Source: an uncultured Methanosarcinales archaeon (lineage in GTDB: Archaea; Nanobdellota; Nanobdellia; Woesearchaeales; JAGLXL01). Taken from it: a DNA stretch of 20,753 bases. Where the stretch lies: contig CAYYLB010000011.1 of assembly GCA_964472345.1 (NCBI GenBank), positions 1 through 20,753 of the forward strand, in the 5' to 3' direction. Under the pieces are notes generated by a model. That model was not told where the DNA came from, searched no databases, and worked only from the letters and a program-made list of their open reading frames with translations. Each line of letters begins with the position of its first letter. Position 1 is the first letter of the stretch. Of this stretch, positions 4,090 through 20,624 are shown one piece after another. A program made the position numbers and the translations under genes.

Positions 4090-4177
4090 TATAACTACTA
4101 TAAAAAGATTGCGGTTGGCCCGGCATCAGGAGCGGTAAACCCTATGGAAGAGAAGAAGGTGAATGTGGCCTCTTGAG

Positions 4178-4537: not shown

Positions 4538-4557
4538 CCCAACAAAAAGAAGACACA

Positions 4558-4571
4558 GATTTTTAAAGATT
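4558..4571. promoter_or_regulatory. Bidirectional TATA element (gatttttaaagatt). It serves the + gene (ATG 4593, 29 nt away) and the - gene (ATG 4537, 27 nt away).
   Basis: Near-palindromic A/T box, equidistant from two divergent ATGs. Confidence 0.45.
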
Positions 4572-4592
4572 CCGTTGTACTGTTGCGGAATC

Positions 4593-9263: not shown

Positions 9264-9307
9264 GCTGCTGCGTCTTCGGCGTCATTTTTGGGACGCAGGC
9301 AACCTAT

Positions 9308-11035
9308 CTATCGCGCTGCCACAAGTTTTTCCATCACCACCATCTCTTTCTCCAGCGTCCCGTCCCCGATGGCGCGCGTCTCCTGCTCAAAATGCTTCCG
9401 GAATTCCTTGAAGAGAACCTGGTAGTGCGGCGAGACGCGCAACGGAAGCGACTGCCGCTCCCAGCGCCCCAGTGTGAGATCATCCTCGGAGGGGATCGCA
9501 ATGCCGCGCTCACGGGCTGTCCGCGGACGCTCACGCTCCTCTCCGCCCGCCCGCTCGTCAAGCATCCAGCTCCTCAGCAGGCTTGCGTAGCGCGACAGCA
9601 GGATGCCCTTGCGGATGCCGCTGCTGGCGAAATGCCCCGAAGCGCCCTGCGGGAAGGTGACCTGCGCCTCGCTGCCCTTGCGGTTGCCGTCGCGGTCATG
9701 GTACTGCACGCGGAGCGTCAGCCTGCCGTCATCGGACAGCTTCCTCAGCTTGAGCAGCACGAGGCCGCCCCGCGTCCCTTCGTCATTCGTTGCAGACGGG
9801 AAGAGCGTCGCGACCTTCATCAGCTCGCCTGTCGCCTCGCTCGCTTCCGGTGAGCCGAAGACCTTCTCGATTTCGTAGCCTTTCGCATCAAGCGTGAGCG
9901 TCAGATCGAAAACGAGCGGGGTCACCATGAAATCGAACTCGTCGCTCATCCGCTTCTTGAACTCAGTTGGTGAATGAACCGCATAGTAGTTCGCACCATT
10001 GGTTTTCGTTACGGCATCAACGAGCTCGCTGTTGAAATCAACGCCGATGCCGATGAAGGTCGTGAAGATGCCGCGTTCCGCATTGCGCTCGGTGATCTTC
10101 AGGATGTCGTCCTCATCGAGCAGGCCGATATTGGGCATCGCGTCGGTGAGGAAGATGATGCGGCTCTCGTAGCCCTGCGCTGCCGGTATTGATGAGAGCA
10201 GCTCCGTCGCCTGCTTCATGCCCGCGGAAAGGTGCGTGCCACCGCGTGCCTGCAGCTCCCGGACGTGCTGCTTGATGCTCTCAAGGCCCGCCTCCCGGAG
10301 AGGTCGCAGCTCCCTGGCAAGATATGCCTGGTCGTTAAAGAGCACGACGCCGAAGCGGTCCTCGGGCTTCAGGTGGTCCATCAGCGCGATGAGCGATTCA
10401 CGCGCAACCTCGATCTTGCTGCGCGCAGCCTCTTCTCCCTGATCGATAACGCTTCCGCTGCCGTCATAATAGTACCGGTCAAACTGCTCGTTCATGGAGC
10501 CGGAAATGTCGAGCACGACGACGAGATTGAGCTTCTTCCGCTGGAAGTCCTCTTCCCTGATTCCTGAATTGAGCCCGACGGAAAGGTAGTACTCGGGCTT
10601 TTGGGAGAGCGGATCGGCGGAAATGGCGGTGTGGTACGATGGGCAGAACAGCTCGGCACACGGCTGCGTTTCACCCGTATCAAAGTAATAATCGTAGAAG
10701 AGCCCTTCATAGGTGATGTCGGTAGGGAGCGGCAGGTAGCCTGCGGCAATGTTCTCGCGGAAGTTGCTGATGTCCTTGGCGCCGCCAGTGGAGAAGCCGA
10801 TGGATGCGGCCGATGCAGACTCAGCGGCTACTATGGTTGGTGAGCCTCCGCCACCCGAGCCTCCGGTTGAAGTGAATTGAGGCCTGCCGATGGCCACTTT
10901 CCCGCCTTCCTGTTCGCTTATCCCCGTGCTGACCTGGAGCGCGTTCAGGCCGTTCTTCTGCACGAGCACAACAACCGCAGTTACTGCAATAACGGCTATC
11001 GCCAGCACCATCAGCACTTTCAGCGGCTTACGCAT
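9308..11035 (-). CDS. N-terminally membrane-anchored von Willebrand factor A (VWA) domain protein with a poly-Gly linker.
   Basis: TM 'VLMVLAIAVIAVTAVVVLV', linker 'GGSGGGGSPTIVAAESASAA', and MIDAS motifs 'VLDISGSM'...'THLSAGM'...'LTDAMPN'. The start at 11035 lies 2 nt after the upstream gene's stop, indicating an operon. Confidence 0.75.
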   Translation of the reverse strand: MRKPLKVLMVLAIAVIAVTAVVVLVQKNGLNALQVSTGISEQEGGKVAIGRPQFTSTGGSGGGGSPTIVAAESASAASIGFSTGGAKDISNFRENIAAGYLPLPTDITYEGLFYDYYFDTGETQPCAELFCPSYHTAISADPLSQKPEYYLSVGLNSGIREEDFQRKKLNLVVVLDISGSMNEQFDRYYYDGSGSVIDQGEEAARSKIEVARESLIALMDHLKPEDRFGVVLFNDQAYLARELRPLREAGLESIKQHVRELQARGGTHLSAGMKQATELLSSIPAAQGYESRIIFLTDAMPNIGLLDEDDILKITERNAERGIFTTFIGIGVDFNSELVDAVTKTNGANYYAVHSPTEFKKRMSDEFDFMVTPLVFDLTLTLDAKGYEIEKVFGSPEASEATGELMKVATLFPSATNDEGTRGGLVLLKLRKLSDDGRLTLRVQYHDRDGNRKGSEAQVTFPQGASGHFASSGIRKGILLSRYASLLRSWMLDERAGGEERERPRTARERGIAIPSEDDLTLGRWERQSLPLRVSPHYQVLFKEFRKHFEQETRAIGDGTLEKEMVVMEKLVAAR

Positions 11036-12368
11036 AGGCACCACCCACCATCGCTGAAAGGTAATGGTCAGGCATCGGGAGCGCGCTCCACAGGAACATG
11101 ATGATACCGCCAAACAGCAGCAGCCAGAAGAGCGTCGCGCCGAAGGCGAAGAGCCCCATGCCAGCTCCTTCCCTTAGGCCAAGGTAGAGTGCGGGTGCAA
11201 AAACCAGGCCGAGCATGGCAAGGCCAACGAAGAGCGGCAACAGGACAAACATGAGGCCGGCGTATCCGTCGTGGTAGCTGCTCACGCGCGCTGCGTACCA
11301 GAGCACTCCGACGGCGCCGAAATAGACGAAGTACACCAGTACTGCGCTCACGAAGCTCACAAGGAGCGCTTTCGTGAGCGCAGCGCTTTTCGCTGCCTGT
11401 GCAGGATAGCTGCGCTTCAGGGGGCGGGAGAGGGTGTCCTTTCGCTGTGCGGAGGTGTGGCTGCTTCCGTAGCATTTCATTTGTGCGGCGAACCGCACGG
11501 CAAGCGTAGCAAGTGCCGCAAAAATCAGGGTGACTACTGCGATGATGATGAGGATCCGCCACTTGTAGAGCAGCAGCGAGGAGGAAGCGTACGCTGCCGT
11601 GACGTGGAAGCTCTCCCACGGATCGAGCGACTGTGTTTCTTTGACAAGGCCGGAGACGTGCTCGACGCGATCCGAGAGCTTGCTGAGGGTGCTTGCGGGG
11701 GCTCCACCGATTGGTGCGGCTTCCTTCGCAGAGATGGCGAGCGAAAACGCAGACTGGTAGTCGACAGCGGTCGTGCTGCCCTTGAGCTTGAAGTCAGGGA
11801 GCGCGTTCACTGCCACGCGGATGTGGTGCGTGTCCACTCCCATCCTGATGGTTTCAAAGTCCGCCTTCCAGACGCCGAGGCTTTTCTTCGCATAATCACC
11901 TGCTTTGTAGTACAGGAGAATCGTGGCACGCTCGTTCTGCTCCACTGGCACGGGCAGCTCAAATCTGAGCATCGTTGAGTGCGAGAGCGTTTCCTGCGTG
12001 TAAAGAACGGGGTAGTATTGAGCGGGGTAGTATTCCGGTCCATACCTCACGCCATCGCCGGAGCCGTACGGATCGTAGCGCCAGTCATCATACGCTTCCG
12101 CTTCCTGCATGATGCTGATGATGCGCACGCTGGTGCCGGGAATCTCGACGCTGAAACCATATAATGGCTCTGGCGGGAGATTGTTGAGCGAAAGCTTCGC
12201 GACCACCTCTGCTTCCCCTTCACCGTCGAAGATCACGGAGTAGTGCTGCGTGTTGGTGAGAAAGCGGTCGGGGGACGGGTCTCCGGGATAATCATAGGGG
12301 GAAGCCAACACTGCAGGCACGATGAGGACGAGCAGCAGCACCGCCGTTCTGAGAGGATTTGTGTTCAT
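11028..12368 (-). CDS. Polytopic membrane protein with a cleavable signal peptide, a ~250-aa extracytoplasmic domain and about 4 TM helices. First gene of the operon with the VWA protein.
   Basis: Signal 'MNTNPLRTAVLLLVLIVPAVLASP'. Hydrophobic helices run from 'WRILIIIAVVTLIF' onward. GGTGA sits 10 nt upstream of the ATG. Minus-strand TATA at 12404-12411. Confidence 0.6.
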   Translation of the reverse strand: MNTNPLRTAVLLLVLIVPAVLASPYDYPGDPSPDRFLTNTQHYSVIFDGEGEAEVVAKLSLNNLPPEPLYGFSVEIPGTSVRIISIMQEAEAYDDWRYDPYGSGDGVRYGPEYYPAQYYPVLYTQETLSHSTMLRFELPVPVEQNERATILLYYKAGDYAKKSLGVWKADFETIRMGVDTHHIRVAVNALPDFKLKGSTTAVDYQSAFSLAISAKEAAPIGGAPASTLSKLSDRVEHVSGLVKETQSLDPWESFHVTAAYASSSLLLYKWRILIIIAVVTLIFAALATLAVRFAAQMKCYGSSHTSAQRKDTLSRPLKRSYPAQAAKSAALTKALLVSFVSAVLVYFVYFGAVGVLWYAARVSSYHDGYAGLMFVLLPLFVGLAMLGLVFAPALYLGLREGAGMGLFAFGATLFWLLLFGGIIMFLWSALPMPDHYLSAMVGGAYA

Positions 12369-12430
12369 GGTCGCTTCACCGAAAGACGAAGGGGAAGCCT
12401 TCTATTTATACCCCGGAGTAAGCTGCAAAT

Positions 12431-12445
12431 GGGGTTGAAGTCTTC
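12431..12445 (-). promoter_or_regulatory. Box a of the conserved GAAGACTTCAACCCC element. It lies 22 nt upstream of the minus-strand TATA for the membrane/VWA operon. On the plus strand it is 6 nt upstream of a second TATA-like tatttaag (12452-12459).
   Basis: Direct read. The element aligns with the boxes at 16716-16729, 18478-18492 and 16553-16561. Confidence 0.5.
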
Positions 12446-12650
12446 CAAGCGTATTTAAGAGAGGGCTCCTTCTCTTCTGGAGAGCCGGAGGCTGCTGCTT
12501 TCGTGCGCTTCCGTGCGGCGTGTACGGAACGGCGGCAAACCACCATCGACGGCGAAGGCACGAGAGAACGGTTGTGCTGGGTGCGTTCCGAAACATTTAT
12601 AAGTACTACTAAAAAAGAGTAACAAATAAAAGGTTAAGGGGTATGTTCGC

Positions 12651-14183
12651 ATGAAGCTTCGCATGAAACGCAATTTGAACATCATGGCGATCGCCGCTCT
12701 TGCCTGTTTCCTGGCGCTCGTGATGCTGACATCAGCGCAGCAGGCAGCGGTCACGTTTCTGGAGCCGGTGAAAGTGCCGCACGGCGCAGACACCATCACG
12801 TTCGATAAGATCGGCCCTGTCTATTTCGGAGCGGACACGAATTATGAGGAACGGCAGACGGAGCGGTATATTGACCACAAGCTCTATGGCAAGGACGCGA
12901 AAACAAATGACTACCGGCTCGTCATTGATATGGATCCCATCCTCTGCCAGGCGAATGTTGAGCTGGCAGCGGTTGAGGAGCAGTACCGGGTTCCGAGCAG
13001 CCGGCTGACGGCTCTGGCAGACATCACTGACAAGGACGGAAAGCTCGTTGACTCGGGATTTGCGGAATGCACCTCCCAGCCGTACCTTGACGATGAGCGG
13101 CAGCGGGCATGTGTGTACCGCATCCCTTCATTCAAAAGCCTGGCGGGAGAGCAGGCGCGCGGCAACCGCTTCACCTGCACCATCAAGTTCCTTGATGACA
13201 ATGACAACGCGGTCGCGCAGGCAGCGTCACAGAAGCCTGCGGTGGTTGCGGATGTGAACTATCATGTCGCTAACATTGTTGACGAAGAGAAGGTTAACTA
13301 TGCGAGTCCGATTGCTGATTATGGGGATTTTAGCACGCAGTATCATTACTTTACTGATATCAGCGGTGTCCGCTCCCAGGAAGAGCTTGATGACACCCGC
13401 AGCAAAGAGAAGCTCGGGAAGGTGGTCTTTCATGGCATCATCGCAGTCACCATGAACCGCGAGGTTTCTCCCGTTCAGGTCATTCTGGACCGTGGGCTTG
13501 AGGCCTGCTTTGTTCATCCAACTCACAGCAATCGAATGATGGAGGTGGTTGGTGTGTCGATCGGTGATGAGGAGAAGCATGCAGGGGACGTGATGGTGGG
13601 GTTTTCTCCTGACATCGTCGAGCAGCTCAATGAGTGCAACCGCCAGGTGAGCACTGCACGAGGCGAAACGGAGTTGGGTGGAGAAAGCGGCCATGCAGTT
13701 TTTGGAGAGCATTATATCCTTCTCTCAAACACCAAAGAGTTTTTATGGGTCTATGATTCGGTGAAGAATCTCATTTCAAGGCATGAGCCTGTTGCCTTCA
13801 GCCACGAGATGGGACATGCCCGTGAGTTTGAAGAAACCGCAGGGTATGCTGCATGTGACGAGTACGACTACGAACTCTGGAAGAAACAGGATCAAGACTT
13901 CAAAGAAAGCGGTTTTCAAGGCTGTCCCAATCCATGGCCGCCCTGCTGCTGCGCCGAGGTGGATGGCACCAACTGCCTTGAGGTAAACGAGGCCTGTATG
14001 GGTACCGAGGAAATCAGGTCAAGAAGCACGGGGAGGGTCGTCATCCGCAGTCCTGTCTGCTATGGAATGCCCCTTGATTATTCTGAGCAGAACAAACTGG
14101 GCCCATTCATGGGTTTCAGCGTGATGGGAAAAGGAAACGCGTATCCTCTCTCCTTTCCGTCCCCATTGCCGAAGGTCGGGTAG
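12651..14183 (+). CDS. Secreted zincin-like metalloprotease candidate (HExxH) with a Cys-rich C-terminal region.
   Basis: Signal peptide 'MAIAALACFLALVMLTSAQQA'. 'AFSHEMGHAREFEE' has the HExxH plus downstream E arrangement. The C-terminal segment reads 'CPNPWPPCCCAEVDGTNCLEVNEACMG'. AAGGGG sits 10 nt upstream of the ATG, and tttataag lies at 12596-12603. Confidence 0.55.
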   Translation: MKLRMKRNLNIMAIAALACFLALVMLTSAQQAAVTFLEPVKVPHGADTITFDKIGPVYFGADTNYEERQTERYIDHKLYGKDAKTNDYRLVIDMDPILCQANVELAAVEEQYRVPSSRLTALADITDKDGKLVDSGFAECTSQPYLDDERQRACVYRIPSFKSLAGEQARGNRFTCTIKFLDDNDNAVAQAASQKPAVVADVNYHVANIVDEEKVNYASPIADYGDFSTQYHYFTDISGVRSQEELDDTRSKEKLGKVVFHGIIAVTMNREVSPVQVILDRGLEACFVHPTHSNRMMEVVGVSIGDEEKHAGDVMVGFSPDIVEQLNECNRQVSTARGETELGGESGHAVFGEHYILLSNTKEFLWVYDSVKNLISRHEPVAFSHEMGHAREFEETAGYAACDEYDYELWKKQDQDFKESGFQGCPNPWPPCCCAEVDGTNCLEVNEACMGTEEIRSRSTGRVVIRSPVCYGMPLDYSEQNKLGPFMGFSVMGKGNAYPLSFPSPLPKVG

Positions 14184-14448
14184 GACAATCATCCCCGTTC
14201 TCTGGCTCGTTCTTTTGGCCAGTTCATCCTGCGCGTGCTGCCTGCCACTCCGTGCCGCTCCGCGGAGCATGGCTTGTTCTTGTCGATTGCGCCGGCCTTA
14301 TGGGCAGCGCGGGTTGACACCGGAACCGGCAGGGCGTTCCCATCGGTGCGATAGTTGACGAAAATTTGCTTTATAGTGCAAACTTTTTACCTATTTCTTT
14401 GCAGTATAATGCAAACATTTATAAACAACTGTCGCTTCTTCCCCTGCT

Positions 14449-15684
14449 ATGCTTCGAGATAGGCTCATCCTGCAGCAGCGGGAGCTGGATCAGAAACGGA
14501 AAGAGCGCTACATCCCGCGCAACGTCCCCACACCCCCCCTAGAGCTCATCACCATCATCATCGGCCCGAGGAGAGCGGGCAAGTCCACCTTTGCCATCCG
14601 CGCCTTTGACGCTCCATTCGCATACGTGAACTTTGACGATGAGCTCCTGGCAGGCACCGAGAACTATGATGAGATTCTTGCGGGTTTGGATTCGCTCTAT
14701 GGTAATCCTTCCGCCTACCTTTTTGACGAAATTCAGAACCTGCCGAAGTGGGAGCTCTTTGTCAACCGGTTGCATCGGTCTGGGAAAAAAGTGCTCATCA
14801 CAGGAAGCAACGCCCATCTTCTCAGCAAGGAGCTGGCAACACACCTCACGGGGCGCCATCTTCCTGTCATCCTCTTTCCTTTTTCATTTCCCGAAGCGCT
14901 CAAGCTCGAGCAGCGGGAGCTGACGGTTCCGGAAATCAAGAGCCGGCTGCAAACCTACCTTGTCAGGGGGGGTTACCCCGAAACGCTCCTGAAGGGTATC
15001 GACCACAAAGAATATCTCACGACATTATTTGCTTCCACCATCTATAAGGATATTGTCGGCCGTTTCCGCATCCGGAACCCCCGCTCCATCGAGAATCTCG
15101 CCGTCTATCTCCTTTCGAATGTCGGAAAAGAATTCTCCTTGAACACGCTTCGCCAGCTTACCCGGAGCAAGAGTTTCCACACCGTAGAGAAGTATGTGGG
15201 TTATCTTGAGGAAGCATTCCTCTTTTTCTCGCTGCAATCGTTTTCCTACAAGCTCAGGGAACGGGGGGCACGAAAGAAGATCTATTGCATCGACAACGGC
15301 CTCATCACGGCAGCAGCGTTCCAGATCAGCCCGGACATCGGCAGGCTGTCGGAGAATGTGGTGGCAATCCAGCTCAGGAAGGAAGAGCTGCGCGGCCGCT
15401 GCCAGCTCTTTTTCTGGAAAAACCCGCAGCAGGAAGAGATCGACTTTGTGGTGAAGAAAGGCGTGGCCGTTGCGGAACTCATCCAGGTATGCCACGCGCT
15501 TCCCGGCCAGAAAACGAAGGAACGGGAAATCCGGGCGCTGCTGAAGGCATCCCGCGAGCTCCGCTGCAAGAAGCTTACCGTAGTCACGGGGGAGCAGGAA
15601 GGAGAAGAAACACTGGAATGGTTCGGCATCGAGCGGAAGCTCCGGTTCGTTCCCCTGTGGAAATGGCTGCGGGAAAGGGACTAG
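14449..15684 (+). CDS. AAA+ ATPase of the DUF4143/COG1373 type.
   Basis: Walker A 'GPRRAGKST', Walker B 'AYLFDEIQ', and a C-terminal DUF4143-like region. TATA tttataaa (14418-14425) lies 28 nt upstream. Confidence 0.8.
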   Translation: MLRDRLILQQRELDQKRKERYIPRNVPTPPLELITIIIGPRRAGKSTFAIRAFDAPFAYVNFDDELLAGTENYDEILAGLDSLYGNPSAYLFDEIQNLPKWELFVNRLHRSGKKVLITGSNAHLLSKELATHLTGRHLPVILFPFSFPEALKLEQRELTVPEIKSRLQTYLVRGGYPETLLKGIDHKEYLTTLFASTIYKDIVGRFRIRNPRSIENLAVYLLSNVGKEFSLNTLRQLTRSKSFHTVEKYVGYLEEAFLFFSLQSFSYKLRERGARKKIYCIDNGLITAAAFQISPDIGRLSENVVAIQLRKEELRGRCQLFFWKNPQQEEIDFVVKKGVAVAELIQVCHALPGQKTKEREIRALLKASRELRCKKLTVVTGEQEGEETLEWFGIERKLRFVPLWKWLRERD

Positions 15685-15742
15685 GGCGGTAGCGCGGCGC
15701 CAAGGCTTCTTGCAGCCTGCTTCGAGAACCTTGTGCTCATGC

Positions 15743-16471
15743 TCACTCTATCTCGAACCCCACGTCCACCTGCACGCTCACCGTGACGTCGCGGGGGCTG
15801 ATGGCGGTCTGTTCTGCCGCAAGCTCGCTCCGCGCGTAGAAGATGGGCGGGACAAAGCCAAGCTCGCTCACGGACACTGCTTTCCCGAGCGCGACGCCGA
15901 GGCTTTCTGCGATGACTGCCGCCCGCTCCCGCGCGTCGCCCGCGGCTTTTGCGAGCAGCTCTGCGTGGACGGCCCTCTGCTTCCCGTCCGAGAGGGTGAA
16001 CGCGATGGACTGGACGGTGTTCGCTCCGTTTTCCACGGCAGCGTCAACCAGCGCTCCGACGCCATCAAGTTTCGTTGTCGTGACCATGATGGTATGGTCC
16101 AGCCGGAACCCCTTGTCCACGCTCTTGCCGAGCAGCGGGTCCCATTCCTGGAAAGGATAGAGCGCATACGTGGTCGTTTCGATCTCATCGTCCCTGACGC
16201 CGGTGTCCTTGAGCGCCCGCATCACCTGATTCATCTGCGCGCGGCTGCGCTCCTGCACCTGCTTTGCGTCTTTCCCTTCGGTGCTCACGCCCAGCGCGAC
16301 CAGCGCCTTGTCGGGAGCGACGTCTTTCTGGGCAGAGCCTGACACCCGTACCTGATTCATGCTGCCATCGCCTGAAACGACGATCTGCCGCTCGCCGAGG
16401 CTGAAGAAGAGCGCTGCGGCAAGCAGGACGAGCACGCCGAGCGTGATGCTGTACAAGGTCTTTTCGTTCAT
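15743..16471 (-). CDS. SIMPL/DUF541-family (BP26/OMP28-like) periplasmic-type protein with an N-terminal TM/signal.
   Basis: 'LVLLAAALFF' anchor followed by SIMPL-like 'IVVSGDGSMNQVRVSGSAQKDVAPDKALVALGV...' and beta-rich repeats. Minus-strand TATA at 16503-16516. Confidence 0.7.
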   Translation of the reverse strand: MNEKTLYSITLGVLVLLAAALFFSLGERQIVVSGDGSMNQVRVSGSAQKDVAPDKALVALGVSTEGKDAKQVQERSRAQMNQVMRALKDTGVRDDEIETTTYALYPFQEWDPLLGKSVDKGFRLDHTIMVTTTKLDGVGALVDAAVENGANTVQSIAFTLSDGKQRAVHAELLAKAAGDARERAAVIAESLGVALGKAVSVSELGFVPPIFYARSELAAEQTAISPRDVTVSVQVDVGFEIE

Positions 16472-16533
16472 GGGGAGATCACCGCCGCCGATAATGGGCT
16501 TCTTTTATTTAAATGGTGCGGAAAGCTTCGGCG

Positions 16534-16562
16534 GCGGTTGAAGTTATCTCTTCTTCAACCGC
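16534..16562. terminator. Strong hairpin with a 10-bp stem (gcggttgaag / cttcaaccgc) and a 9-nt loop. It contains the stop codon of the 35-aa ORF and doubles as box d (ACTTCAACCGCC) 22 nt upstream of the SIMPL-gene TATA.
   Basis: Perfect inverted repeat read directly from the sequence. Confidence 0.45.
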
Positions 16563-16651
16563 TCCCGTATCGCCATCACCACGACGAACACCACGATCGC
16601 CACCGCGGCGCCGAGCAGGAACCAGAGCAGGACGTCGGGCTGCTGCATCAT
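16544..16651 (-). CDS. 35-aa single-TM micro-protein MMQQPDVLLWFLLGAAVAIVVFVVVMAIRERLKKR. It is below the ORF-track length cutoff.
   Basis: ATG-ATG start. It has its own minus-strand TATA (16686-16694) preceded by box b. It is closely similar to the C-terminal TM anchor of the 17709..18437 regulator ('QQSDAVVWFLLGAAVTIIAVIIIAILWKYSRKKKQKG'). Confidence 0.45.
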   Translation of the reverse strand: MMQQPDVLLWFLLGAAVAIVVFVVVMAIRERLKKR

Positions 16652-16715
16652 GGATTGCGGGGTGTATCATGCAAGCATCCGGCAGCATTTAAACAGCTTC
16701 TGATAGCTGCAACGC

Positions 16716-16729
16716 GGATTGAAGTCTTC
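16716..16729. promoter_or_regulatory. Box b (GGATTGAAGTCTTC; minus-strand reading GAAGACTTCAATCC). It lies 23 nt upstream of the minus TATA for the micro-protein. On the plus strand it is 6 nt upstream of TATA tttaaataa (16736-16744), which serves the gene at 16767.
   Basis: Direct read. The box sits in a bidirectional promoter arrangement. Confidence 0.5.
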
Positions 16730-16766
16730 GCTGGGTTTAAATAATTTCTTGCCCAGCACTTTCTTC

Positions 16767-17690
16767 ATGAACAAGGGGGAGATGATGTTTATGAAACCGA
16801 AAGAGCAACTGCAAAAACTTAGGAAGCATTGGCTTGCTGCCGCGCTTGTTGTCGGAGTGCTCGTCATCTTCCTGATGATCGGAACGGGACGTGTTGCGAC
16901 ATTTCAGGGCACCACGGATGTCCAGGAGCGAGGTTGGGGTCAACTTGTGGTGCAATCTGCTGGTGGCGGAGGTGGAGGCGGCTCTGGAAGACTTATCGGA
17001 GCAGCAGCATCTGAATCCTTGCAAAACCTTCTTGATCGTAAAGTGGCTACCGATGTTACCCTCTCAACGGAAATTGAACGGGGGACATTTCAGAAGGCAG
17101 AGCAACAGCTCAAGGCGACCATCTCAGCAAACAAAGGCCTCATTCTCGATGAGAAATTGGCACGACACGGCTCGGGCAGATCATTGGCGTACGAAGGGAG
17201 CTACCGCATCAAAATAAGCCCGGATAATTACGATCGCGCCATAGCCCAATTAAAGGCAATAGGGGGAGTTGTTGAATTCACCCAGCACAGTGAAGACATT
17301 TCAGATCAGTATGTGAACACGCAGGTAGAGATCGATACCGAGAAATCGCGGCTTGTGCGTTATAACCGGATCTATGCAGATGCAGTGACAATCGAGGAGA
17401 AGCTCAGCATTACCAACCTGATATTCGAGCAGGAGCGGAAAATCAAATATCTGGAAGACGCGCTGAAAAACAGTGACCAGCGGCTTGAGTATGTCGCCAT
17501 TGCGTTATCGCTGCAAGAAAAACGCTCAGCATACGTGGATATTGTCGTCGTCAAGTTCGCGCAACTGGCGAAGCTCTTCGTCGCAAGAATGAACGGCCTC
17601 CTCGAGTTCCTCTTCGTGGTGCTGCCGTTTGGGATTGCCGCGCTGATGGTGTGGCTTTTCGTACGATTCGTGCGAAGACGGAGGCAGTGA
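16767..17690 (+). CDS. Bitopic membrane protein. It has an N-terminal TM, a poly-Gly linker, a ~230-aa extracytoplasmic coiled-coil-rich domain, and a C-terminal TM with an Arg-rich tail.
   Basis: 'WLAAALVVGVLVIFLMIGTGRVATF', 'GGGGGGGSGRLIGAAASES', C-terminal 'FLFVVLPFGIAALMVWLFVRFVRRRRQ'. ATG at 16767 lies 27 nt from the TATA. ORF-track start 16719 is upstream of the promoter. Confidence 0.55.
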   Translation: MNKGEMMFMKPKEQLQKLRKHWLAAALVVGVLVIFLMIGTGRVATFQGTTDVQERGWGQLVVQSAGGGGGGGSGRLIGAAASESLQNLLDRKVATDVTLSTEIERGTFQKAEQQLKATISANKGLILDEKLARHGSGRSLAYEGSYRIKISPDNYDRAIAQLKAIGGVVEFTQHSEDISDQYVNTQVEIDTEKSRLVRYNRIYADAVTIEEKLSITNLIFEQERKIKYLEDALKNSDQRLEYVAIALSLQEKRSAYVDIVVVKFAQLAKLFVARMNGLLEFLFVVLPFGIAALMVWLFVRFVRRRRQ

Positions 17691-17730
17691 TATTCCTTTT
17701 TTATCTCTTTATCCTTTTTGTTTCTTCTTT
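17691..17730 (+). terminator. T-rich tract (tattccttttttatctctttatcctttttgtttcttcttt) after the stop of the + gene. This is an archaeal oligo-T style terminator.
   Basis: Direct read. It partly overlaps the 3' end of the convergent gene. Confidence 0.35.
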
Positions 17731-18428
17731 CTAGAATACTTCCAAAGAATAGCAATGATAATAACAGCAATAATCGTCACTGCGGCGCCGAGCAAAAACC
17801 AAACCACTGCATCTGATTGCTGAGCGACAACCGTAGCAGCCTTCGCGGTAGCCTCTTCAGCTGCACCTGAGGCATTTTGCACCATCTCTTTGGCTGATTC
17901 TCCAGTGGTTGCTATGCTTCCTCCACCTCCTCCTCCGCCTTCAAGAACGGACTTCGCAAGAAGCTGGTCTTGTAGCTCGCTCCCTACCGAGGAGACGGTT
18001 CCTGAGGCCGAGAACACAGCAATTCTCCCACTGACTAACGCCAAGAGTCCTGCAAAGAGAGCACTGACTCCTAACGCAATGCCCGCCACCGGCAGCACCG
18101 CCCTCAGCTTCTCCCGCAGGCCTTCGATCTTCTTTGGAGCGATGATGATGTACTTGTTCGCGAGCTTGTAGTGCTGCACCTCCCTGCCCTTGGGGCTGTA
18201 GTGGAACTCTTCCGTTGCGATGAGCTTGGCTTCCTGCAGCTTCTGGATATGATAATGCACGGTCGAGAGCGGAATGCCAAGAGCGGCGGCGATGCCCGAC
18301 TCAGTGTCGTCTTCCCTGTCCGCAAGATGCTCAAGGATCCTCCTGCTGGTCTCGCTGGTGATGGTCTCGGCGAGCTTCTTGGTTTTTGGCTCGCTCAGAT
18401 CAACGAGGAGGAACTTGCCTTTTGCCAT
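17709..18428 (-). CDS. Membrane-tethered ArsR-family winged-HTH transcriptional regulator. Domain order is wHTH, TM1, poly-Gly loop, TM2, Lys-rich tail.
   Basis: 'SETSRRILEHLADREDDTESGIAAALGIPLSTVHYHIQKLQEAKLIATEE' is an ArsR-type HTH. TM1 is 'VLPVAGIALGVSALFAGLLALV'. The loop carries 'GGGGGGGS'. TM2 is 'VVWFLLGAAVTIIAVIIIAILW', followed by 'KYSRKKKQKG'. ATG 18428 (M4) fits TATA 18451-18459. ORF-track start 18437 is also possible. Confidence 0.6.
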   Translation of the reverse strand: MAKGKFLLVDLSEPKTKKLAETITSETSRRILEHLADREDDTESGIAAALGIPLSTVHYHIQKLQEAKLIATEEFHYSPKGREVQHYKLANKYIIIAPKKIEGLREKLRAVLPVAGIALGVSALFAGLLALVSGRIAVFSASGTVSSVGSELQDQLLAKSVLEGGGGGGGSIATTGESAKEMVQNASGAAEEATAKAATVVAQQSDAVVWFLLGAAVTIIAVIIIAILWKYSRKKKQKG

Positions 18429-18477
18429 GGGAAGCATCTGCGGAAGCCGCTTTAAATACGTTGTGATGGCTTCGAAC

Positions 18478-18492
18478 GGGGTTGAAGTCTTC
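18478..18492 (-). promoter_or_regulatory. Box c (GAAGACTTCAACCCC on the minus strand). It lies 21 nt upstream of TATA tatttaaag for the ArsR-TM regulator gene.
   Basis: Direct read. It is identical to box a over 15 nt. Confidence 0.5.
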
Positions 18493-18515: not shown

Positions 18516-19208
18516 TCACCGTCGCCGTTCGTGCCCTCCTGTATCACTCATCCCGCCCGCAGGAAACGAAAGTGGGGATGAGAGCGGGGGTGGCGCGGCA
18601 CGGCTGAGAAGCCGCACCCATCGGTAGCTGTGGAACAGGACGACATGGTCACGGACAGCCTGGCGTGCGAAGGGGTCGCCCTTCCGTAAGAGCCCGATGA
18701 AGTCTTTTGTCCGCAGGAGCCGTGCAGAAACCCTGTTTTCAAGAGTGACGAAGCACGTTTCAACGATGGCAGTGATTCTTTTCCGGTGCATCTTCCTCAT
18801 CAGCAGGAGCATATCAAGGTCGCTTTCCTTCGTCCCGGTGCCGCGGGCAAGAGAGCCGAAGACCAGCGCAGCATCAACAAGAGGGGCTGCCTCTTTCCTG
18901 AACTGCTCCATCGGGCCACGGAAGCGGGGATGTTTCATAAGGAAACCGGCAAGCGTTTCCCTCTCCAGCAGCGCAAAGCAGAGGCGTCCCGTTTCGGAGG
19001 CAAGGTTTGGCCGCAGCAGCCTGAGCAGCGGCTTCTTCCCCCTGAGTTCCTCCGCGATCACCTCCGCCGTGAGCAGCTCCTGCACATAGGCGTAAGCCCT
19101 TTTCTGCGAGGCGCGGACCTCCCTGATCAAGGCTGATATGGGGATTTCTCCCCGTCGGTAGACTGCTTCAATGATCTTGTATTTCGTTTGCGGAATGGGA
19201 AAAATCAT
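18516..19208 (-). CDS. Minimal nucleotidyltransferase (pol-beta superfamily, MntA-like) fused to an N-terminal wHTH-like domain.
   Basis: 'ALVFGSLARGTGTKESDLDMLLL' matches the GS-x9-13-DxD NTase motif. The ATG at 19208 overlaps the upstream HEPN stop as ATGA. ORF-track start 19295 lies inside the HEPN gene. Confidence 0.7.
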   Translation of the reverse strand: MIFPIPQTKYKIIEAVYRRGEIPISALIREVRASQKRAYAYVQELLTAEVIAEELRGKKPLLRLLRPNLASETGRLCFALLERETLAGFLMKHPRFRGPMEQFRKEAAPLVDAALVFGSLARGTGTKESDLDMLLLMRKMHRKRITAIVETCFVTLENRVSARLLRTKDFIGLLRKGDPFARQAVRDHVVLFHSYRWVRLLSRAAPPPLSSPLSFPAGGMSDTGGHERRR

Positions 19209-19717
19209 CGGTAACACCTCTCCTCGATGAACGGAACAATCTTCTTCGCCAGCAGGTACACGCTCTCCGCATCGCTCCGCGACAGCTGCTTCCATTTCCC
19301 GACATCATACTGCCCGATTTTCCTCAGGGAATACATGACATCAAAGCCCGTGAAGTCCGCGAACTTCGCATGGATCCCCCTAAGCTCGCCGTAGAGCCCC
19401 GACGGGAGGACATCAAAAAACGTGAGGGCGAGAATGGCGCAGAGATGATCCTTCGAGTAGAACCCTCTCTCCTTGATGAGCAGCGCATTCATCGCATGGT
19501 GGATCGCGTAGTACGACTTGACGATGGCCCAATCCCACTGCTCCCGGGAGAAGTCAGCGTCGACGCTCCGCAGGTCGCTCTTTGCCTTTTCCAGGTGCGA
19601 AGAAAATTCCCCGGTTTGCACCTCAACAAACTTTCCCAGGGAAGCACAGTTCTCATAGGCAGCCCTGACACGCTCGGGCTTCTGCGGCAGCTGAGGGACG
19701 ACTTCTTCGATGACCAT
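19205..19717 (-). CDS. HEPN-domain protein, a putative toxin/RNase partner of the downstream nucleotidyltransferase.
   Basis: All-helical; 'WDWAIVKSYYAIHHAMNALLIKERGFYSKDH' matches the HEPN core helices. It is translationally coupled to the NTase gene. TATA atatataaat (19741-19750) lies 28 nt upstream. Confidence 0.6.
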   Translation of the reverse strand: MVIEEVVPQLPQKPERVRAAYENCASLGKFVEVQTGEFSSHLEKAKSDLRSVDADFSREQWDWAIVKSYYAIHHAMNALLIKERGFYSKDHLCAILALTFFDVLPSGLYGELRGIHAKFADFTGFDVMYSLRKIGQYDVGKWKQLSRSDAESVYLLAKKIVPFIEERCYR

Positions 19718-19933: not shown

Positions 19934-20624
19934 TTATTCTATTTTGTCATGCTTTTCCAAATTACATTTAGCACAGAGAATCCTTACATTTTTTTCGGTT
20001 ATACTACTTCCCCCTTTAGAAAATGGTAACTCATGGTCGTAATGTAAGTTTTTGGTCGAACCACAAAGAACACACCGATTTTTTGTCTCTTTTCCAGACG
20101 GCAACTTTAACATTGGTTGGTATAAGTCTCGTATGTTCTTCTTCATCTTTTCCTTTTGGAATCTCGATAGCATCCTCAATAGGCTTAAGAATAAATTTTA
20201 GAACTTTTCTACCATTTGAAATTCTTGTCTCATAGTCAATCAATGAGAATAGCCCTTTTTCTGACCAAATTCCAGAATTTAATTTTTCAAAAACAAGTAT
20301 TTTTTCTGGAGAAATCAAGCCTTTTTTATAATCTTCTACTGCTTTCACAAATTTGCCATTTTCTGTCAATGTTCCATTATCAGTTAATAGTGGTTGATCA
20401 ATTTGCTTTGGTTCGGGGTTTTGTTTTGATTTTGGAACATCGTGACCCTCATAGATCAGCAAATTCCTCTCAATATCTATCTCATCGTCATATGGGGCGC
20501 CAGGCCTAACAGACATTAAAATGGCAGAAAGGCCCTTTTTTATGTGAAAATTCATCCCTTTCTGAATGGTATTTACATGAATTTTATTACACATCTCCCG
20601 AAAAGACAAAATTTCATCTTTCAT
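19934..20624 (-). pseudogene. HNH endonuclease with an uncharacterised N-terminal domain, interrupted by a 1-nt frameshift in a T6/A6 homopolymer (20079-20084).
   Basis: Frame 1 ends '...VKVAVWKRDKKSVCSLW'. Frame 2 continues 'KNRCVLCGSTKNLHYDHELPFSKGGSSITEKNVRILCAKCNLEKHDKIE' (CxxC...HxDH...N...CxxCN, an HNH motif). Deleting one A restores 'WKRDKNRCVLCGS'. The region is strongly AT-rich compared with its flanks. Confidence 0.6.

What the first reader, a model, noticed from the sequence alone, without database searches (positions are those of the whole stretch)
12431..18492. Recurrent 45-nt promoter architecture [GAAGACTTCAAyCC]-N21-23-[TATA] marks a candidate cell-envelope regulon
Four promoters align when read on the minus strand. 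They are a (12445->12399), b (16729->16686), c (18492->18451) and d (16561->16503). The four sequences are: a TTGGAAGACTTCAACCCCATTTGCAGCTTACTCCGGGGTATAAATAG; b AGCGAAGACTTCAATCCGCGTTGCAGCTATCAGAAGCTGTTTAAATG; c CGCGAAGACTTCAACCCCGTTCGAAGCCATCACAACGTATTTAAAG; d GATAACTTCAACCGCCGCCGAAGCTTTCCGCACCATTTAAATAAAAG. The box sits at a fixed distance upstream of the TATA, at the BRE-distal side where archaeal activators and repressors bind. The spacers also share a second block, TTGCAGCT / TCGAAGCC / CGAAGCTT. The downstream genes are (a) the polytopic-membrane-protein plus VWA operon, (b) a 35-aa TM micro-protein, (c) a membrane-tethered ArsR-type regulator, and (d) a SIMPL/DUF541 protein. All four are envelope proteins. 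Boxes a and b also sit 5-6 nt upstream of plus-strand TATA-like boxes. Box b's plus-strand TATA serves the divergent bitopic-protein gene at 16767. The box core, GAAG-T-CTTC, is a small palindrome suited to a dimeric wHTH factor. One of the four promoters is that of the ArsR-type regulator itself, which would make this an autoregulated circuit. I could not find this box elsewhere in the window, including inside genes.
Basis: seen in the sequence. Interest (0 to 1): 0.8.

Follow-up and report, generated by a model that had tools for sequence, protein, structure and literature searches.

The report
Conserved operator of a membrane-tethered archaeal regulator
The four look-alike promoters are real binding-site-plus-TATA modules of a small gene circuit, conserved across Woesearchaeota/Nanoarchaeota-type (DPANN) archaea, in which a membrane-anchored DNA-binding protein most likely controls its own gene and neighbouring genes for cell-surface proteins.

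Summary
GAAGACTTCAAYC occurs exactly three times and once with two mismatches. All four copies are intergenic, on the minus strand, and 21-22 nt upstream of a TATA box.

Comparison with 80 related loci revises the anatomy. The conserved element is a 7-6-7 imperfect palindrome, (A)ACTTCAA-N6-TTSAARY, ending 9-13 nt upstream of the TATA box, just beyond the BRE.

- The element sits at a fixed distance upstream of 68 of 80 orthologues of the window's wHTH/two-TM regulator.
- It precedes 42 of 47 neighbouring DUF4349 genes.
- It also precedes SIMPL, VWA, beta-propeller and other signal-peptide proteins.
- A matrix built only from the other genomes picks sites c, a, d and b as the four best hits in the window.
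- Across 1.2 Mb, 87% of 161 sites are intergenic, against 16% non-ORF sequence.

Best reading: an autoregulated local regulon of a transmembrane transcription regulator, probably acting as an activator from the membrane. Binding by this protein and the sign of regulation are inferred, not shown.

Box b is primarily the DUF4349 promoter. Its 35-aa "micro-protein" looks like a remnant of a regulator gene.

Novelty: a new member of a known kind, with ArnR and TFB-RF1 as the closest analogues.

The parts
18468..18492 (-). Operator c: GAAGACTTCAACCCCGTTCGAAGCC. Half-sites are ACTTCAA and TCGAAG with a 6-nt spacer.
   Evidence: (23.0 bits). It matches the composite promoter found upstream of 68 of 80 regulator orthologues.
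18451..18458 (-). TATA box of promoter c (TATTTAAA), preceded by ATCACAACG in the BRE position. The ATG at 18428 lies about 26 nt from the TATA centre, so the mRNA is predicted to be leaderless.
   Evidence: The same spacing holds in orthologues: the 50-mer start lies 66-68 nt from the ATG in 36 of 68 sites.
17709..18428 (-). Transmembrane transcription regulator, 239 aa. It has an N-terminal wHTH (about aa 14-90), TM1 (about 113-137), a variable Gly/Ala/Ser-rich extracytoplasmic loop, TM2 (about 207-229) and a basic tail.
   Evidence: Pfam HTH_20 at 1.9e-11. Alignment A1 shows an invariant recognition helix STVHYH.QKL.EA. AF2 model. Foldseek best hits are PH1932, Phr, SmtB and CadC.
16703..16729 (.). 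Operator b, shared by two divergent promoters: CTGCAA-CGCGGA-TTGAAGT on the plus strand, ACTTCAA-TCCGCG-TTGCAG on the minus strand.
   Evidence: (11.5 bits minus strand, 8.7 plus strand). The TTGAAGTyWTCGCTGGG-TATA arrangement is shared with L002 and L004.
16736..16743 (+). TATA box (TTTAAATA) of the DUF4349 promoter, 9 nt after the operator. The ATG at 16767 lies at leaderless distance.
16767..17690 (+). DUF4349 membrane protein with an N-terminal TM, an extracytoplasmic coiled-coil domain and a C-terminal TM. It is convergent with the regulator gene and is the most conserved regulon member.
   Evidence: Pfam DUF4349 at 1.9e-24. In 47 of 80 loci a homologue lies within 10 kb of the regulator, and 42 of those 47 carry the operator.
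16686..16693 (-). TATA box (TTTAAATG) of the minus-strand side of b.
   Evidence: Promoter b(-) is 82% identical over 49 nt to the regulator promoter of L001.
16544..16651 (-). 35-aa ORF (MMQQPDVLLWFLLGAAVAIVVFVVVMAIRERLKKR). It is probably a remnant of the C-terminal TM helix of a second regulator copy.
   Evidence: 87% DNA identity to the 3' end of the L001 regulator gene.
16524..16548 (-). Operator d: GATAACTTCAACCGCCGCCGAAGCT.
   Evidence: (20.2 bits). It is conserved in L001, L207 and L208, and homology to the window begins exactly at the box.
16506..16513 (-). TATA box of promoter d (TTTAAATA). A GGTGAT Shine-Dalgarno-like sequence precedes the ATG at 16471.
15743..16471 (-). SIMPL/DUF541 protein with an N-terminal TM or signal sequence.
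   Evidence: Pfam SIMPL at 3.2e-46. Operator-preceded SIMPL genes also occur in L001, L034 and L060.
12421..12445 (-). Operator a: GAAGACTTCAACCCCATTTGCAGCT.
   Evidence: (21.7 bits). It is 91% identical over 35 nt to L002 12344-12378. It belongs to the 'a-type' promoter class TTGmAGCTTACT-N5-6-TATAAATAGAAG, seen at 14 sites.
12403..12410 (-). TATA box of promoter a (TATAAATA). The BRE position is GC-rich (CTCCGGGG). A GGTGA sequence precedes the ATG at 12368.
11028..12368 (-). 446-aa protein with a signal peptide, an extracytoplasmic domain and C-terminal polytopic TM segments. No Pfam family matches.
   Evidence: The L002 orthologue is 29% identical (E 1e-40) and has the same promoter. The family has 6 members downstream of operators.
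9308..11035 (-). VWA-domain protein with an N-terminal TM. Its start overlaps the stop of the 446-aa gene, so the two probably form one operon.
   Evidence: Pfam VWA_2 and VWA. VWA proteins sit directly behind operators in L074 and L081.
12452..12459 (+). TATA-like box (TATTTAAG) 9 nt from the plus-strand edge of operator a. It may be a divergent promoter towards the secreted 510-aa protein gene (12651-14183), which also has its own TATA near 12585. Whether it belongs to the circuit is uncertain.

Best explanation
The four sites are operators of a compact, autoregulated regulon. Each consists of an imperfect palindrome (A)ACTTCAA-N6-TTSAARY, whose proximal edge lies 9-13 nt upstream of the TATA box, just beyond the BRE.

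The protein most likely to bind is the product of 17709-18428. It has an ArsR-like winged-helix domain followed by two transmembrane helices, which makes it a one-component transmembrane transcription regulator. A dimer would read the two half-sites while anchored in the membrane.

The targets are:
- the regulator's own promoter (c);
- the convergent DUF4349 gene (b, plus strand);
- the SIMPL gene (d);
- the operon of the 446-aa membrane protein and the VWA protein (a).

Because the operator always lies upstream of BRE/TATA, I favour activation by helping TFB/TBP recruitment, as for ArnR, TFB-RF1 and upstream-bound TrmBL1. At b and possibly a, the symmetric site is flanked by TATA boxes on both sides. 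The co-conserved DUF4349 protein is a candidate partner or sensor.

Shown: the motif, its fixed geometry, its restriction to promoters, its deep conservation, and its association with the regulator gene and with envelope-protein genes.

Inferred: that this regulator binds the motif, the sign of regulation, and the signal it responds to.
For: Motif and chance.

Deep conservation:
- Promoter a is 91% identical over 35 nt in AT-rich L002, where the downstream proteins are 29% identical.
- L004/L016 has a perfect palindrome, GACTTCAA-TCCTCC-TTGAAGTC, before its regulator gene.

Autoregulation: 68 of 80 regulator orthologues from Woesearchaeota/Nanoarchaeota genomes carry ACTTCAA-N6-TYRAAS-yTATCAaAAC-nn-TATTTAAA at a fixed distance from the ATG. 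The recognition helix is invariant across the family, which fits an invariant motif.

Specificity:
- 210 matrix hits against 7.6 in shuffles over 1.2 Mb.
- 161 unique sites, of which 140 are intergenic against 16% non-ORF sequence (binomial P 3e-88); 49 sites score on both strands.
- The TATA start lies 32-34 nt from the matrix start in 129 of 146 TATA-bearing matrix hits.

Targets:
- DUF4349: 42 of 47 genes carry the operator.
- Beta-propeller proteins: 5 of 5.
- The 446-aa family: 3 of 4.
- VWA and SIMPL genes and lipoproteins also appear.
- Sites cluster within 3 kb of the regulator gene.

Activator position rule, from the literature:
- TrmBL1 activates when bound upstream of BRE/TATA (PMC4706686).
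- TFB-RF1 has a palindrome at a conserved distance upstream of a weak BRE and acts on its own operon (PMC5937170).
- ArnR is a membrane-bound activator with boxes at -43 to -84 (PMC6396743).
- In the window, promoters a, b and d lack the RAAA-type BRE seen at the non-regulon promoters upstream of 12651, 14449 and 20624.
Against: - There are no binding, TSS or expression data. Everything rests on sequence comparison.
- The matrix was trained on regulator promoters from the same loci that were then scanned. Only the roughly 97 other sites and the window's own sites are independent.
- The source genome is not in the genome collection, so no genome-wide scan of it was possible. Only 10 kb either side of each regulator gene was examined.
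- The second half-site is weak in most sites (TCAAAC). A direct-repeat reading, TTCAA-N5-TTCAA, cannot be excluded.
- The attempt to compare BRE strength across promoter classes was inconclusive because the registers differ.
- Twelve of 80 orthologues lack a recognisable site. Several of these follow an upstream gene without a gap, and some lie at contig ends.
- The regulator's own promoter has a good A-rich BRE, so autoregulation could equally be negative.
Confidence: 0.7

Rival explanations
1. The operator and regulon are the same, but the membrane-tethered regulator is a repressor. It would hold the promoters off, by blocking TFB/BRE access or by tethering them to the membrane, until a signal releases it.
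For: - Most characterised ArsR/SmtB-fold proteins are repressors. Foldseek hits include SmtB, CadC, ArsR and Phr.
- The operator edge is only 9-13 nt from the TATA box, so a bound dimer could clash with TFB at the BRE.
- The regulator's own promoter has a good A-rich BRE, as expected for a basally active, negatively autoregulated gene.
Against: - In no case does the operator overlap the TATA box or the TSS, which is the usual position for archaeal repressors.
- The position is the same at all target classes and matches known activator sites.
- Target promoters a, b and d in the window lack an A-rich BRE.
Confidence: 0.25
2. The motif is a real operator, but a different soluble transcription factor encoded elsewhere binds it. 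The membrane-tethered regulator gene would then be only one of the targets.
For: No direct evidence links the protein to the site. Only 20 kb per genome was examined, so a distal factor would be invisible.
Against: - Sites are concentrated within 3 kb of the regulator gene: 15-20 per 100 kb, against about 1 per 100 kb beyond 5 kb.
- The site precedes the regulator gene in 68 of 80 genomes.
- An invariant recognition helix parallels an invariant half-site.
- Self-targeting by a palindromic site is the classic signature of the cognate factor.
Confidence: 0.12
3. The similarity reflects common descent of duplicated promoter segments, or recombination scars, and has no shared regulatory role.
For: - Promoter b(-) is 82% identical to promoter c over 49 nt, including non-motif positions, and is followed by a regulator-gene remnant.
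- Operator copies flank inserted cassettes in L208, L001, L002 and L032.
Against: - Promoters a and d share only the motif and TATA with c, and sit in unrelated flanks.
- The motif survives at 29% protein identity and across a shift from 58% to about 35% GC.
- Position-specific conservation with a free spacer is what selection on a binding site produces. Recent duplication would not give this pattern.
Confidence: 0.03
4. The box is a general promoter-strength element of these genomes, or is read by an alternative TFB/TBP, and is not a gene-specific operator.
For: The element lies at a fixed distance from the TATA box, as core promoter elements do.
Against: - Other clear promoters in the window lack it: alaS, 12651, 14449, 19717, 20624 and 3424.
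- 450 generic promoters in the related loci were collected only after excluding operator-bearing ones.
- The element lies beyond the reach of BRE contacts and is palindromic.
Confidence: 0.03

Closest known systems
ArnR/ArnR1 of Sulfolobus acidocaldarius, membrane-bound one-component activators of the archaellum promoter (PMC6396743)
   Same: - N-terminal HTH and two C-terminal transmembrane helices.
- Acts on DNA from the membrane.
- Inverted-repeat boxes lie upstream of BRE/TATA (-43 to -84).
- Targets are cell-surface structures.
   Different: - ArnR has HAMP-like and sensor domains between the HTH and the TM helices. The window protein has only a short helix before TM1, and its variable loop is extracytoplasmic.
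- The motif differs: TCGAC-N5-GTCGA against ACTTCAA-N6-TTGAAGT.
- The lineages differ: Sulfolobales against Nanoarchaeota/Woesearchaeota.
- No sequence relationship was tested beyond the shared wHTH class.
TFB-RF1 (PF1088) of Pyrococcus furiosus (PMC5937170)
   Same: - A palindromic site (TCTGAANTTCAGA) at a conserved distance just upstream of a weak BRE and TATA.
- It acts on its own operon and on one further membrane-transport operon.
- The site is phylogenetically conserved across an order.
- This is the mechanistic template for the activation model.
   Different: - TFB-RF1 is soluble and belongs to a different family.
- Its motif is shorter and unspaced.
- TFB recruitment is demonstrated there and only inferred here.
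Transmembrane transcription regulators (TTRs) such as ToxR, CadC and TcpP; census in PMC10269533
   Same: A DNA-binding domain fused to TM segments, forming a one-component signalling protein that works at the membrane. Some have a co-encoded membrane partner such as ToxS or LysP (from my own knowledge), for which DUF4349 would be the analogue here.
   Different: - The well-known bacterial examples use OmpR-type wHTH domains and one TM helix with a periplasmic sensor domain (from my own knowledge).
- This protein has an ArsR-like wHTH, a TM hairpin and a low-complexity loop.
- The text of that census does not mention DPANN, Woesearchaeota, ArsR or HTH_20.
ArsR/SmtB-fold archaeal regulators PH1932 and Phr (PDB 1uly/2cwe, 2p4w)
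   Same: They are the best sequence hits (E 0.002-0.02) and the best structural hits (Foldseek E 5e-5 to 3e-4) for the wHTH domain.
   Different: - They are soluble dimers.
- Phr is a repressor whose site overlaps the TSS (from my own knowledge).
- The window protein fails the NCBIfam ArsR/SmtB cut-off, scoring 25 bits against 55.

Membership tests
Transmembrane transcription regulator (TTR, as defined in PMC10269533) | A predicted DNA-binding domain | tested here: met
   Pfam HTH_20 at 44.2 bits against a cut-off of 27, plus HTH_24, MarR_2 and HTH_IclR. The AF2 model shows a wHTH with pLDDT of about 82-94 across the helix-turn-helix and lower values (60-70) in the wing.
Transmembrane transcription regulator (TTR, as defined in PMC10269533) | At least one transmembrane region in the same polypeptide | tested here: met
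   Two hydrophobic helices, LPVAGIALGVSALFAGLLALV and VVWFLLGAAVTIIAVIIIAILW, are conserved in position in 20 of 20 aligned homologues. They are modelled as long helices. No dedicated TM predictor was run.
ArsR/SmtB metalloregulator family | Sequence membership (NCBIfam NF033788, Pfam HTH_5) | tested here: not met
   NF033788 scores 25.4 bits against a cut-off of 55. Pfam HTH_5 is marginal at 23.0 against 22. The fold resembles SmtB, CadC and ArsR, so the protein is ArsR-like in fold only.
ArsR/SmtB metalloregulator family | Metal-binding site (alpha3N or alpha5 Cys/His ligands) | not tested
   The wHTH region (aa 1-110) contains no cysteine. Ligand sites were not analysed further.
ArnR-type membrane-bound activator | N-terminal HTH plus two C-terminal TM helices | tested here: met
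   ArnR architecture is taken from PMC6396743.
ArnR-type membrane-bound activator | Cytoplasmic HAMP-like and sensor domains between the HTH and the TM helices | tested here: not met
   TM1 follows the wHTH after about 20 residues. Pfam finds no further domain.
ArnR-type membrane-bound activator | Inverted-repeat boxes upstream of BRE/TATA (ArnR box TCGAC-N5-GTCGA) | tested here: inconclusive
   The position class is the same, upstream of the BRE. The sequence and spacing differ (ACTTCAA-N6-TTGAAGT). No homology test against ArnR was possible.
Activator-type archaeal promoter (TFB-RF1 or upstream-bound TrmBL1 logic) | Binding site entirely upstream of BRE/TATA at a conserved distance | tested here: met
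   The operator edge lies 9-13 nt from the TATA box at all four window sites. The offset is 32-34 nt in 129 of 146 TATA-bearing matrix hits in relatives.
Activator-type archaeal promoter (TFB-RF1 or upstream-bound TrmBL1 logic) | Weak BRE at target promoters | tested here: inconclusive
   Window promoters a, b and d lack the RAAA run seen at non-regulon promoters. The cross-genome profile comparison was not clean.
Activator-type archaeal promoter (TFB-RF1 or upstream-bound TrmBL1 logic) | Factor-dependent stimulation of TFB/TBP recruitment or transcription | not testable with these tools
   This needs in vitro transcription or EMSA with TBP and TFB.
Autoregulated transcription-factor regulon (comparative-genomics criteria) | The motif lies upstream of the factor's own gene and is conserved across genomes | tested here: met
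   68 of 80 loci, plus L001, L207 and L208.
Autoregulated transcription-factor regulon (comparative-genomics criteria) | The motif is enriched in intergenic regions upstream of orthologous target genes | tested here: met
   140 of 161 sites are intergenic. DUF4349 genes carry the operator in 42 of 47 cases.
Autoregulated transcription-factor regulon (comparative-genomics criteria) | Physical binding of the factor to the motif | not testable with these tools
   EMSA, footprinting or DAP-seq is required.

The most novel reading that the evidence does not exclude
Two linked readings go beyond an ordinary regulon.

First, the regulator-DUF4349 pair may be the conserved envelope or host-contact sensing module of Woesearchaeota/Nanoarchaeota-type DPANN archaea. 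It would switch surface proteins from the membrane.

Second, its operator may double as a preferred insertion or recombination site, where toxin-antitoxin and defence-type cassettes enter and leave. The cassettes seen are HEPN/MNT, AbrB-type, Phd-like and AAA_14/PDC-S01. This would create a regulated, cassette-accepting hotspot.

Four independent cases show inserts bounded by operator copies of 8-25 nt; in L032 the outer copies share 42 identical nt: L208, L001, L002 and L032.
Probability: 0.12. Interest if true: 0.8.

Novelty: new member of a known kind. Interest (0 to 1): 0.6.

Why it matters
DPANN archaea of the Woesearchaeota/Nanoarchaeota type are uncultivated, have small genomes, and have almost no described gene regulation. 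This locus offers a concrete, testable circuit with a defined 20-bp operator and a candidate membrane-anchored factor.

- The conserved core pairs the regulator with DUF4349, a domain of unknown function.
- A variable set of secreted proteins (SIMPL, VWA, beta-propeller proteins and lipoproteins) is attached to that core.

The circuit is conserved in most of the 80 species-level genomes examined. It therefore probably reports something basic about how these cells sense or remodel their surface, which is the interface with hosts for many DPANN. It also gives a functional lead for DUF4349 and adds an archaeal example of transcription control from the membrane, next to ArnR.

Practically, the operator matrix can be used to annotate regulon members in any MAG of this clade.

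Tried and rejected
1. Exact look-up of the window's regulator in the assembly index found nothing. The source genome is also absent from the genome collection: the best hit is 48-50% identical. A true genome-wide scan of the source organism was therefore impossible.

Of the 80 loci returned, 78 are chance matches in GC-richer, mostly bacterial-looking contigs from gut, soil and water samples, including one recurrent gut-metagenome sequence (their coding status and taxonomy were not checked). Only L102, and doubtfully L100, has a TATA box at the right distance. The pattern was too degenerate for a database of that size. The scan serves only as a rough negative control.

4. I asked whether the L002 gene behind its b-like promoter (9158-9991) is a DUF4349 homologue. 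It is not (no Pfam hit). It forms an operon with the regulator instead.

5. The cross-genome comparison of BRE strength was inconclusive because the TATA registers differ between promoter classes.

6. A systematic search for long exact operator duplications found a clear case only in L032. The insertion-hotspot idea therefore rests on four cases.

7. Literature searches for DUF4349, DPANN promoter motifs and membrane-bound archaeal regulators found no description of this regulon. The library is incomplete, so this is absence of evidence only.

8. PADLOC finds no known defence system among the regulon genes. The regulator hits Csa3/CARF models only through the generic wHTH.

Full report
**1. 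The observation**

The four quoted sequences are in the window as written.

- GAAGACTTCAAYC is exact at 12433-12445, 16717-16729 and 18480-18492, all on the minus strand.
- GATAACTTCAACC, with two mismatches, is at 16536-16548 on the minus strand.
- No other match with up to 2 mismatches exists on either strand (4 found, 0.97 expected).
- The 11-mer core with up to 1 mismatch gives 4 matches against 0.45 expected. None of 100 shuffles reaches 4. The extra match, at 13893 inside a gene, looks like chance.

Each box is followed after 21-22 nt by a TATA box and then by a start codon. Everything else checks out.

**2. The setting**

The window is a complete 20,753-bp NCBI contig.

Its genes include archaeal housekeeping functions: RNase HII, the CCA-adding enzyme and AlaRS.

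In the region of interest there are:
- a 446-aa membrane protein followed by a VWA protein;
- a secreted 510-aa protein;
- an AAA_14/DUF4143 ATPase;
- a SIMPL protein;
- a DUF4349 protein;
- a 239-aa protein with an HTH_20 winged helix and two hydrophobic helices;
- a nucleotidyltransferase/HEPN pair.

The regulator's relatives are annotated as Woesearchaeota or Nanoarchaeota. They are 40-60% identical overall and about 70% identical over the DNA-binding half. The window's lineage is unusually GC-rich, at 55-60% against 30-45% for the relatives.

**3. Close relatives**

L001, L207 and L208 are ENA contigs 85-94% identical in DNA to the window. They keep boxes c and d, and L208 also keeps box a.

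At this distance conservation alone says little, but two details are informative.
- Homology between L001 and the window resumes exactly at box d.
- The window's 35-aa ORF behind box b is 87% identical in DNA to the 3' end of the L001 regulator gene, which encodes its C-terminal TM helix.
- The minus-strand side of promoter b is 82% identical to the regulator promoter over 49 nt.

So b(-) and the 'micro-protein' look like the remains of a second regulator copy.

**4. Distant relatives give the decisive evidence**

In AT-rich L002, the orthologue of the 446-aa protein is only 29% identical (E 1e-40). It is nevertheless preceded by AACTTCAACTCCATTTGCAGCTTACTGCGGGCTATATAAAA, which is 91% identical to promoter a over 35 nt.

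In L004/L016 the regulator gene is preceded by a perfect palindrome, GACTTCAA-TCCTCC-TTGAAGTC, followed 11 nt later by TATAAATA. The DUF4349 gene of the same contig has AACTTCAATCCTATTCAAAA, followed by 11 nt and then TTTATATA.

I then fetched 80 loci encoding regulator relatives from species-representative genomes.
- 68 of the 80 have the same composite promoter at a fixed distance from the start codon: wTAACTTCAA-N6-TYRAAS-yTATCAaAAC-nn-TATTTAAA.
- The ATG lies about 26 nt after the TATA centre, which predicts leaderless mRNA.
- The window's promoter c fits this consensus position by position.

**5. What the motif is**

The information profile shows three elements:
- a strongly conserved distal half-site, A-C-T-T-C-A-A;
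- a free 6-nt spacer that is pyrimidine-rich on this strand;
- a weaker proximal half-site, T-Y-R-A-A-S-Y.

The reverse complement of the proximal half-site is R-S-T-T-Y-R-A. This is compatible with ACTTCAA at all seven positions.

In 49 of 161 unique sites the matrix scores on both strands.

Relatives have TAAC, GTGAC or ATAAC there.

Because TTCAA and TTGAA differ only at the centre, a direct-repeat reading (TTCAA-N5-TTCAA) cannot be excluded for the majority class.

**6. Specificity**

I built a 24-nt matrix from the regulator promoters and scanned all 1.2 Mb of loci.
- It gives 210 hits at 14 bits or more, against 7.6 in shuffles.
- These collapse to 161 unique sites. 140 of them (87%) are intergenic, although only 16% of the sequence lies outside long ORFs (binomial P 3e-88).
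- 138 unique sites have a TATA box at the expected distance on at least one strand.
- The TATA offset is 32-34 nt in 129 of 146 TATA-bearing matrix hits.

Caveats:
- The 64 'own' promoter sites are circular, because the matrix was trained on them. The roughly 97 other sites and the window's sites are independent.
- The TATA pattern I used is permissive in AT-rich DNA.

Applied to the window, which contributed nothing to the matrix, the four best hits are c (23.0 bits), a (21.7), d (20.2) and b (11.5). Their reverse readings follow. Shuffles give 0.23 hits at 10 bits or more.

**7. The regulon**

Proteins encoded downstream of the non-regulator sites cluster as follows:

| Family | Members downstream of sites |
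|---|---|
| DUF4349 | 39 |
| 446-aa family of promoter a | 6 |
| Secreted beta-propeller proteins, about 655 aa | 5 |
| SIMPL | 4 |
| VWA | 2 |
| Assorted lipoproteins and signal-peptide proteins | singletons |

Counting from the gene side, the operator precedes:
- 42 of 47 DUF4349 genes found within 10 kb of a regulator gene;
- 5 of 5 beta-propeller genes;
- 3 of 4 genes of the 446-aa family;
- 2 of 4 VWA genes;
- 2 of 9 SIMPL genes; the other VWA and SIMPL genes may lie inside operons.

Sites are concentrated within 3 kb of the regulator gene, at 15-20 per 100 kb. Density falls to about 1 per 100 kb beyond 5 kb. This is a compact local regulon with perhaps a handful of distal members per genome.

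The window reproduces the canonical layout.
- The regulator and DUF4349 genes are convergent.
- DUF4349 is driven from the plus-strand side of operator b: TTGAAGTC-TTCGCTGGG-TTTAAATA, with the ATG at leaderless distance.
- The string TCGCTGGG between the operator and the TATA box is shared with L002 and L004.

Each target class also has its own conserved proximal segment:
- regulator promoters: yTATCAaAAC;
- DUF4349 promoters: AAGTCTTTAAAGCA;
- a-type promoters: GCTTACT-N5-6-TATAAATAGAAG.

**8. The protein**

Alignment of 20 family members shows:
- an invariant N-terminal region, including the recognition helix STVHYH.QKL.EA;
- a conserved first TM helix about 20 residues after the wing;
- a loop that varies in length and is low in complexity;
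- a conserved second TM helix (WFLxG...);
- a basic tail.

The AF2 model (mean pLDDT 69; about 82-94 across the helix-turn-helix, 60-70 in the wing) gives a four-helix wHTH with a beta-hairpin wing and two long helices.

The best structural matches are PH1932, Phr, SmtB, CadC and ArsR. The best sequence matches in the PDB are PH1932 and Phr, at E 0.002-0.02. The protein fails the NCBIfam ArsR/SmtB cut-off.

It is therefore an ArsR-like wHTH fused to a TM hairpin. By the definition of PMC10269533 it is a transmembrane transcription regulator. The text of that paper does not mention this clade or this domain type.

**9. Mechanism**

Shown: the geometry. The operator's proximal edge lies 9-13 nt from the TATA box at every window site and in nearly all relatives. 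The site therefore occupies roughly -42 to -62, just upstream of the BRE.

Established knowledge:
- TrmBL1 activates when bound upstream of BRE/TATA and represses when bound downstream (PMC4706686).
- TFB-RF1 binds a palindrome at a conserved distance upstream of a weak BRE and recruits TFB, including at its own operon (PMC5937170).
- ArnR and ArnR1 are membrane-bound activators whose boxes lie at -43 to -84 (PMC6396743).

Inference: a membrane-anchored dimer binds the palindrome and assists TFB/TBP recruitment. At b, and possibly at a, one symmetric site serves TATA boxes on both sides.

In the window, promoters a, b and d have GC-rich, non-RAAA sequence in the BRE position, unlike the non-regulon promoters upstream of 12651, 14449 and 20624. 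This fits activator dependence, but my cross-genome test of the point was inconclusive.

I rate the steps as follows:

| Claim | Probability |
|---|---|
| The sites are operators of a transcription-factor regulon | about 0.85-0.9 |
| The adjacent membrane regulator is the factor | about 0.7-0.75 |
| Activation rather than repression, given the above | about 0.6 |

The signal is unknown. The near-obligate partner DUF4349 has an N-terminal TM, an extracytoplasmic coiled-coil domain and a C-terminal TM. This is the tail-anchored topology also noted for a bacterial DUF4349 protein in PMC10924467. It is the obvious candidate co-sensor, but that is speculation.

**10. Comparison with known systems, and novelty**

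The system works like ArnR (a membrane-bound wHTH activator of surface structures) and like TFB-RF1 (an autoregulated palindrome upstream of a weak BRE).
- It is not a member of the ArnR family. It has no HAMP or sensor domain, its motif differs and its lineage differs.
- It is not a bona fide ArsR/SmtB metalloregulator.

I found no description of this motif, regulator or regulon in the searchable literature. I class it as a new member of a known kind. Its interest lies in being a deeply conserved, experimentally tractable regulatory circuit in an uncultivated DPANN lineage, and in the functional lead it gives for DUF4349.

**11. Side observation**

Relative to the window, several relatives carry inserts bounded by copies of the operator.
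- L208 has an 829-bp insert with two small genes, one of them AbrB/SpoVT-like. It is flanked by ACTTCAAC exactly inside operator a.
- L001, L207 and L208 have a 270-bp insert with a 48-aa antitoxin-like gene, flanked by GATGACTTCGGCC and GATAACTTCAACC at d.
- L002 has an AAA_14/DUF4143 gene flanked by 25-nt operator copies.
- L032 has a 110-aa gene and a HEPN/MNT pair between three copies of the DUF4349 operator; all three share 19 identical nt and the two outer copies share 42.

The inserted genes are of toxin-antitoxin or defence type. In the window, the AAA_14 gene matches PADLOC PDC-S01 at 2e-94 and the nucleotidyltransferase matches PDC-M05A.

Two explanations are possible. The operator may be a preferred insertion site. 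Alternatively, operator copies may mediate recombination that shuffles cassettes. Four cases cannot decide between them.

Noticed in passing
window 16544-16651 (-), with L001 4426-4539: The 35-aa 'micro-protein' ORF is 87% identical in DNA to the part of the L001 regulator gene that encodes its C-terminal TM helix. Its promoter b(-) is 82% identical to the regulator promoter over 49 nt. It looks like the remnant of a second regulator copy. If so, the L001 regulator is a reg1-N/reg2-C chimera that lost DUF4349.
   Followed up: partly
L208 6701-7537; L001 4531-4823; L002 10937-12365; L032 10239-12059: Four independent inserts relative to the window or to neighbouring sequence are bounded by direct copies of the operator (8-25 nt; in L032 the outer copies share 42 identical nt). 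They carry toxin-antitoxin or defence-type genes: AbrB-like with an 84-aa partner, a 48-aa antitoxin-like gene, AAA_14/DUF4143, and HEPN/MNT. The operator may be an insertion or recombination hotspot.
   Followed up: partly
window 14449-15684 (+): The AAA_14/DUF4143 ATPase matches the PADLOC candidate defence family PDC-S01 at E 2e-94. It is absent at this position in L001 and L208, where a 163-aa gene sits instead, so it is an accessory gene in this neighbourhood.
   Followed up: partly
window 18516-19717 (-): Overlapping HEPN (170 aa) and nucleotidyltransferase (259 aa, PADLOC PDC-M05A-like) genes lie directly upstream of promoter c. The pair is conserved in L001, L207 and L208. The nucleotidyltransferase has an N-terminal extension with a weak wHTH-like hit (CasR model).
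   Followed up: no
window 12452-12650 (+): A TATA-like box (TATTTAAG) lies 9 nt from the plus-strand edge of operator a. It is followed by a GC-rich stretch with inverted repeats (GGCTCC...GGAGAGCC). It lies upstream of the gene for a secreted, Cys-rich 510-aa protein with no Pfam family, which has its own TATA near 12585. This may be a second, regulated promoter or a leader.
   Followed up: partly
window 17709-18428, 16767-17690, 9308-11035: Runs of 4-7 glycines (GGGGGGGS, GGGGGGGSG, GGSGGGGS) occur in the predicted extracytoplasmic segments of the regulator, DUF4349 and the VWA protein. The AT-rich relatives lack them.
   Followed up: no
window 20200-20225: A weak palindromic matrix hit (10.2 and 6.8 bits, AGAACTTTTCTACCATTTGAAATT) lies inside the gene 20031-20624, which has a weak SAD/SRA-like match. 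It is probably chance.
   Followed up: no
L007, L019, L025, L029, L041, L043, L053, L059, L061, L065, L068 (upstream of the regulator): In 11 loci the gene immediately upstream of the regulator promoter encodes a polytopic membrane protein with GTSIPE-type repeats, like a Na+/Ca2+ exchanger (CaCA). Other loci have unrelated neighbours.
   Followed up: partly
window 3486-3860 (-) and 4178-5102 (-): A PIN-domain gene and two overlapping ORFs without Pfam hits lie here, in a lower-GC patch (52% GC at 4001-5000). This may be another toxin-antitoxin or accessory islet. I did not examine it.
   Followed up: no
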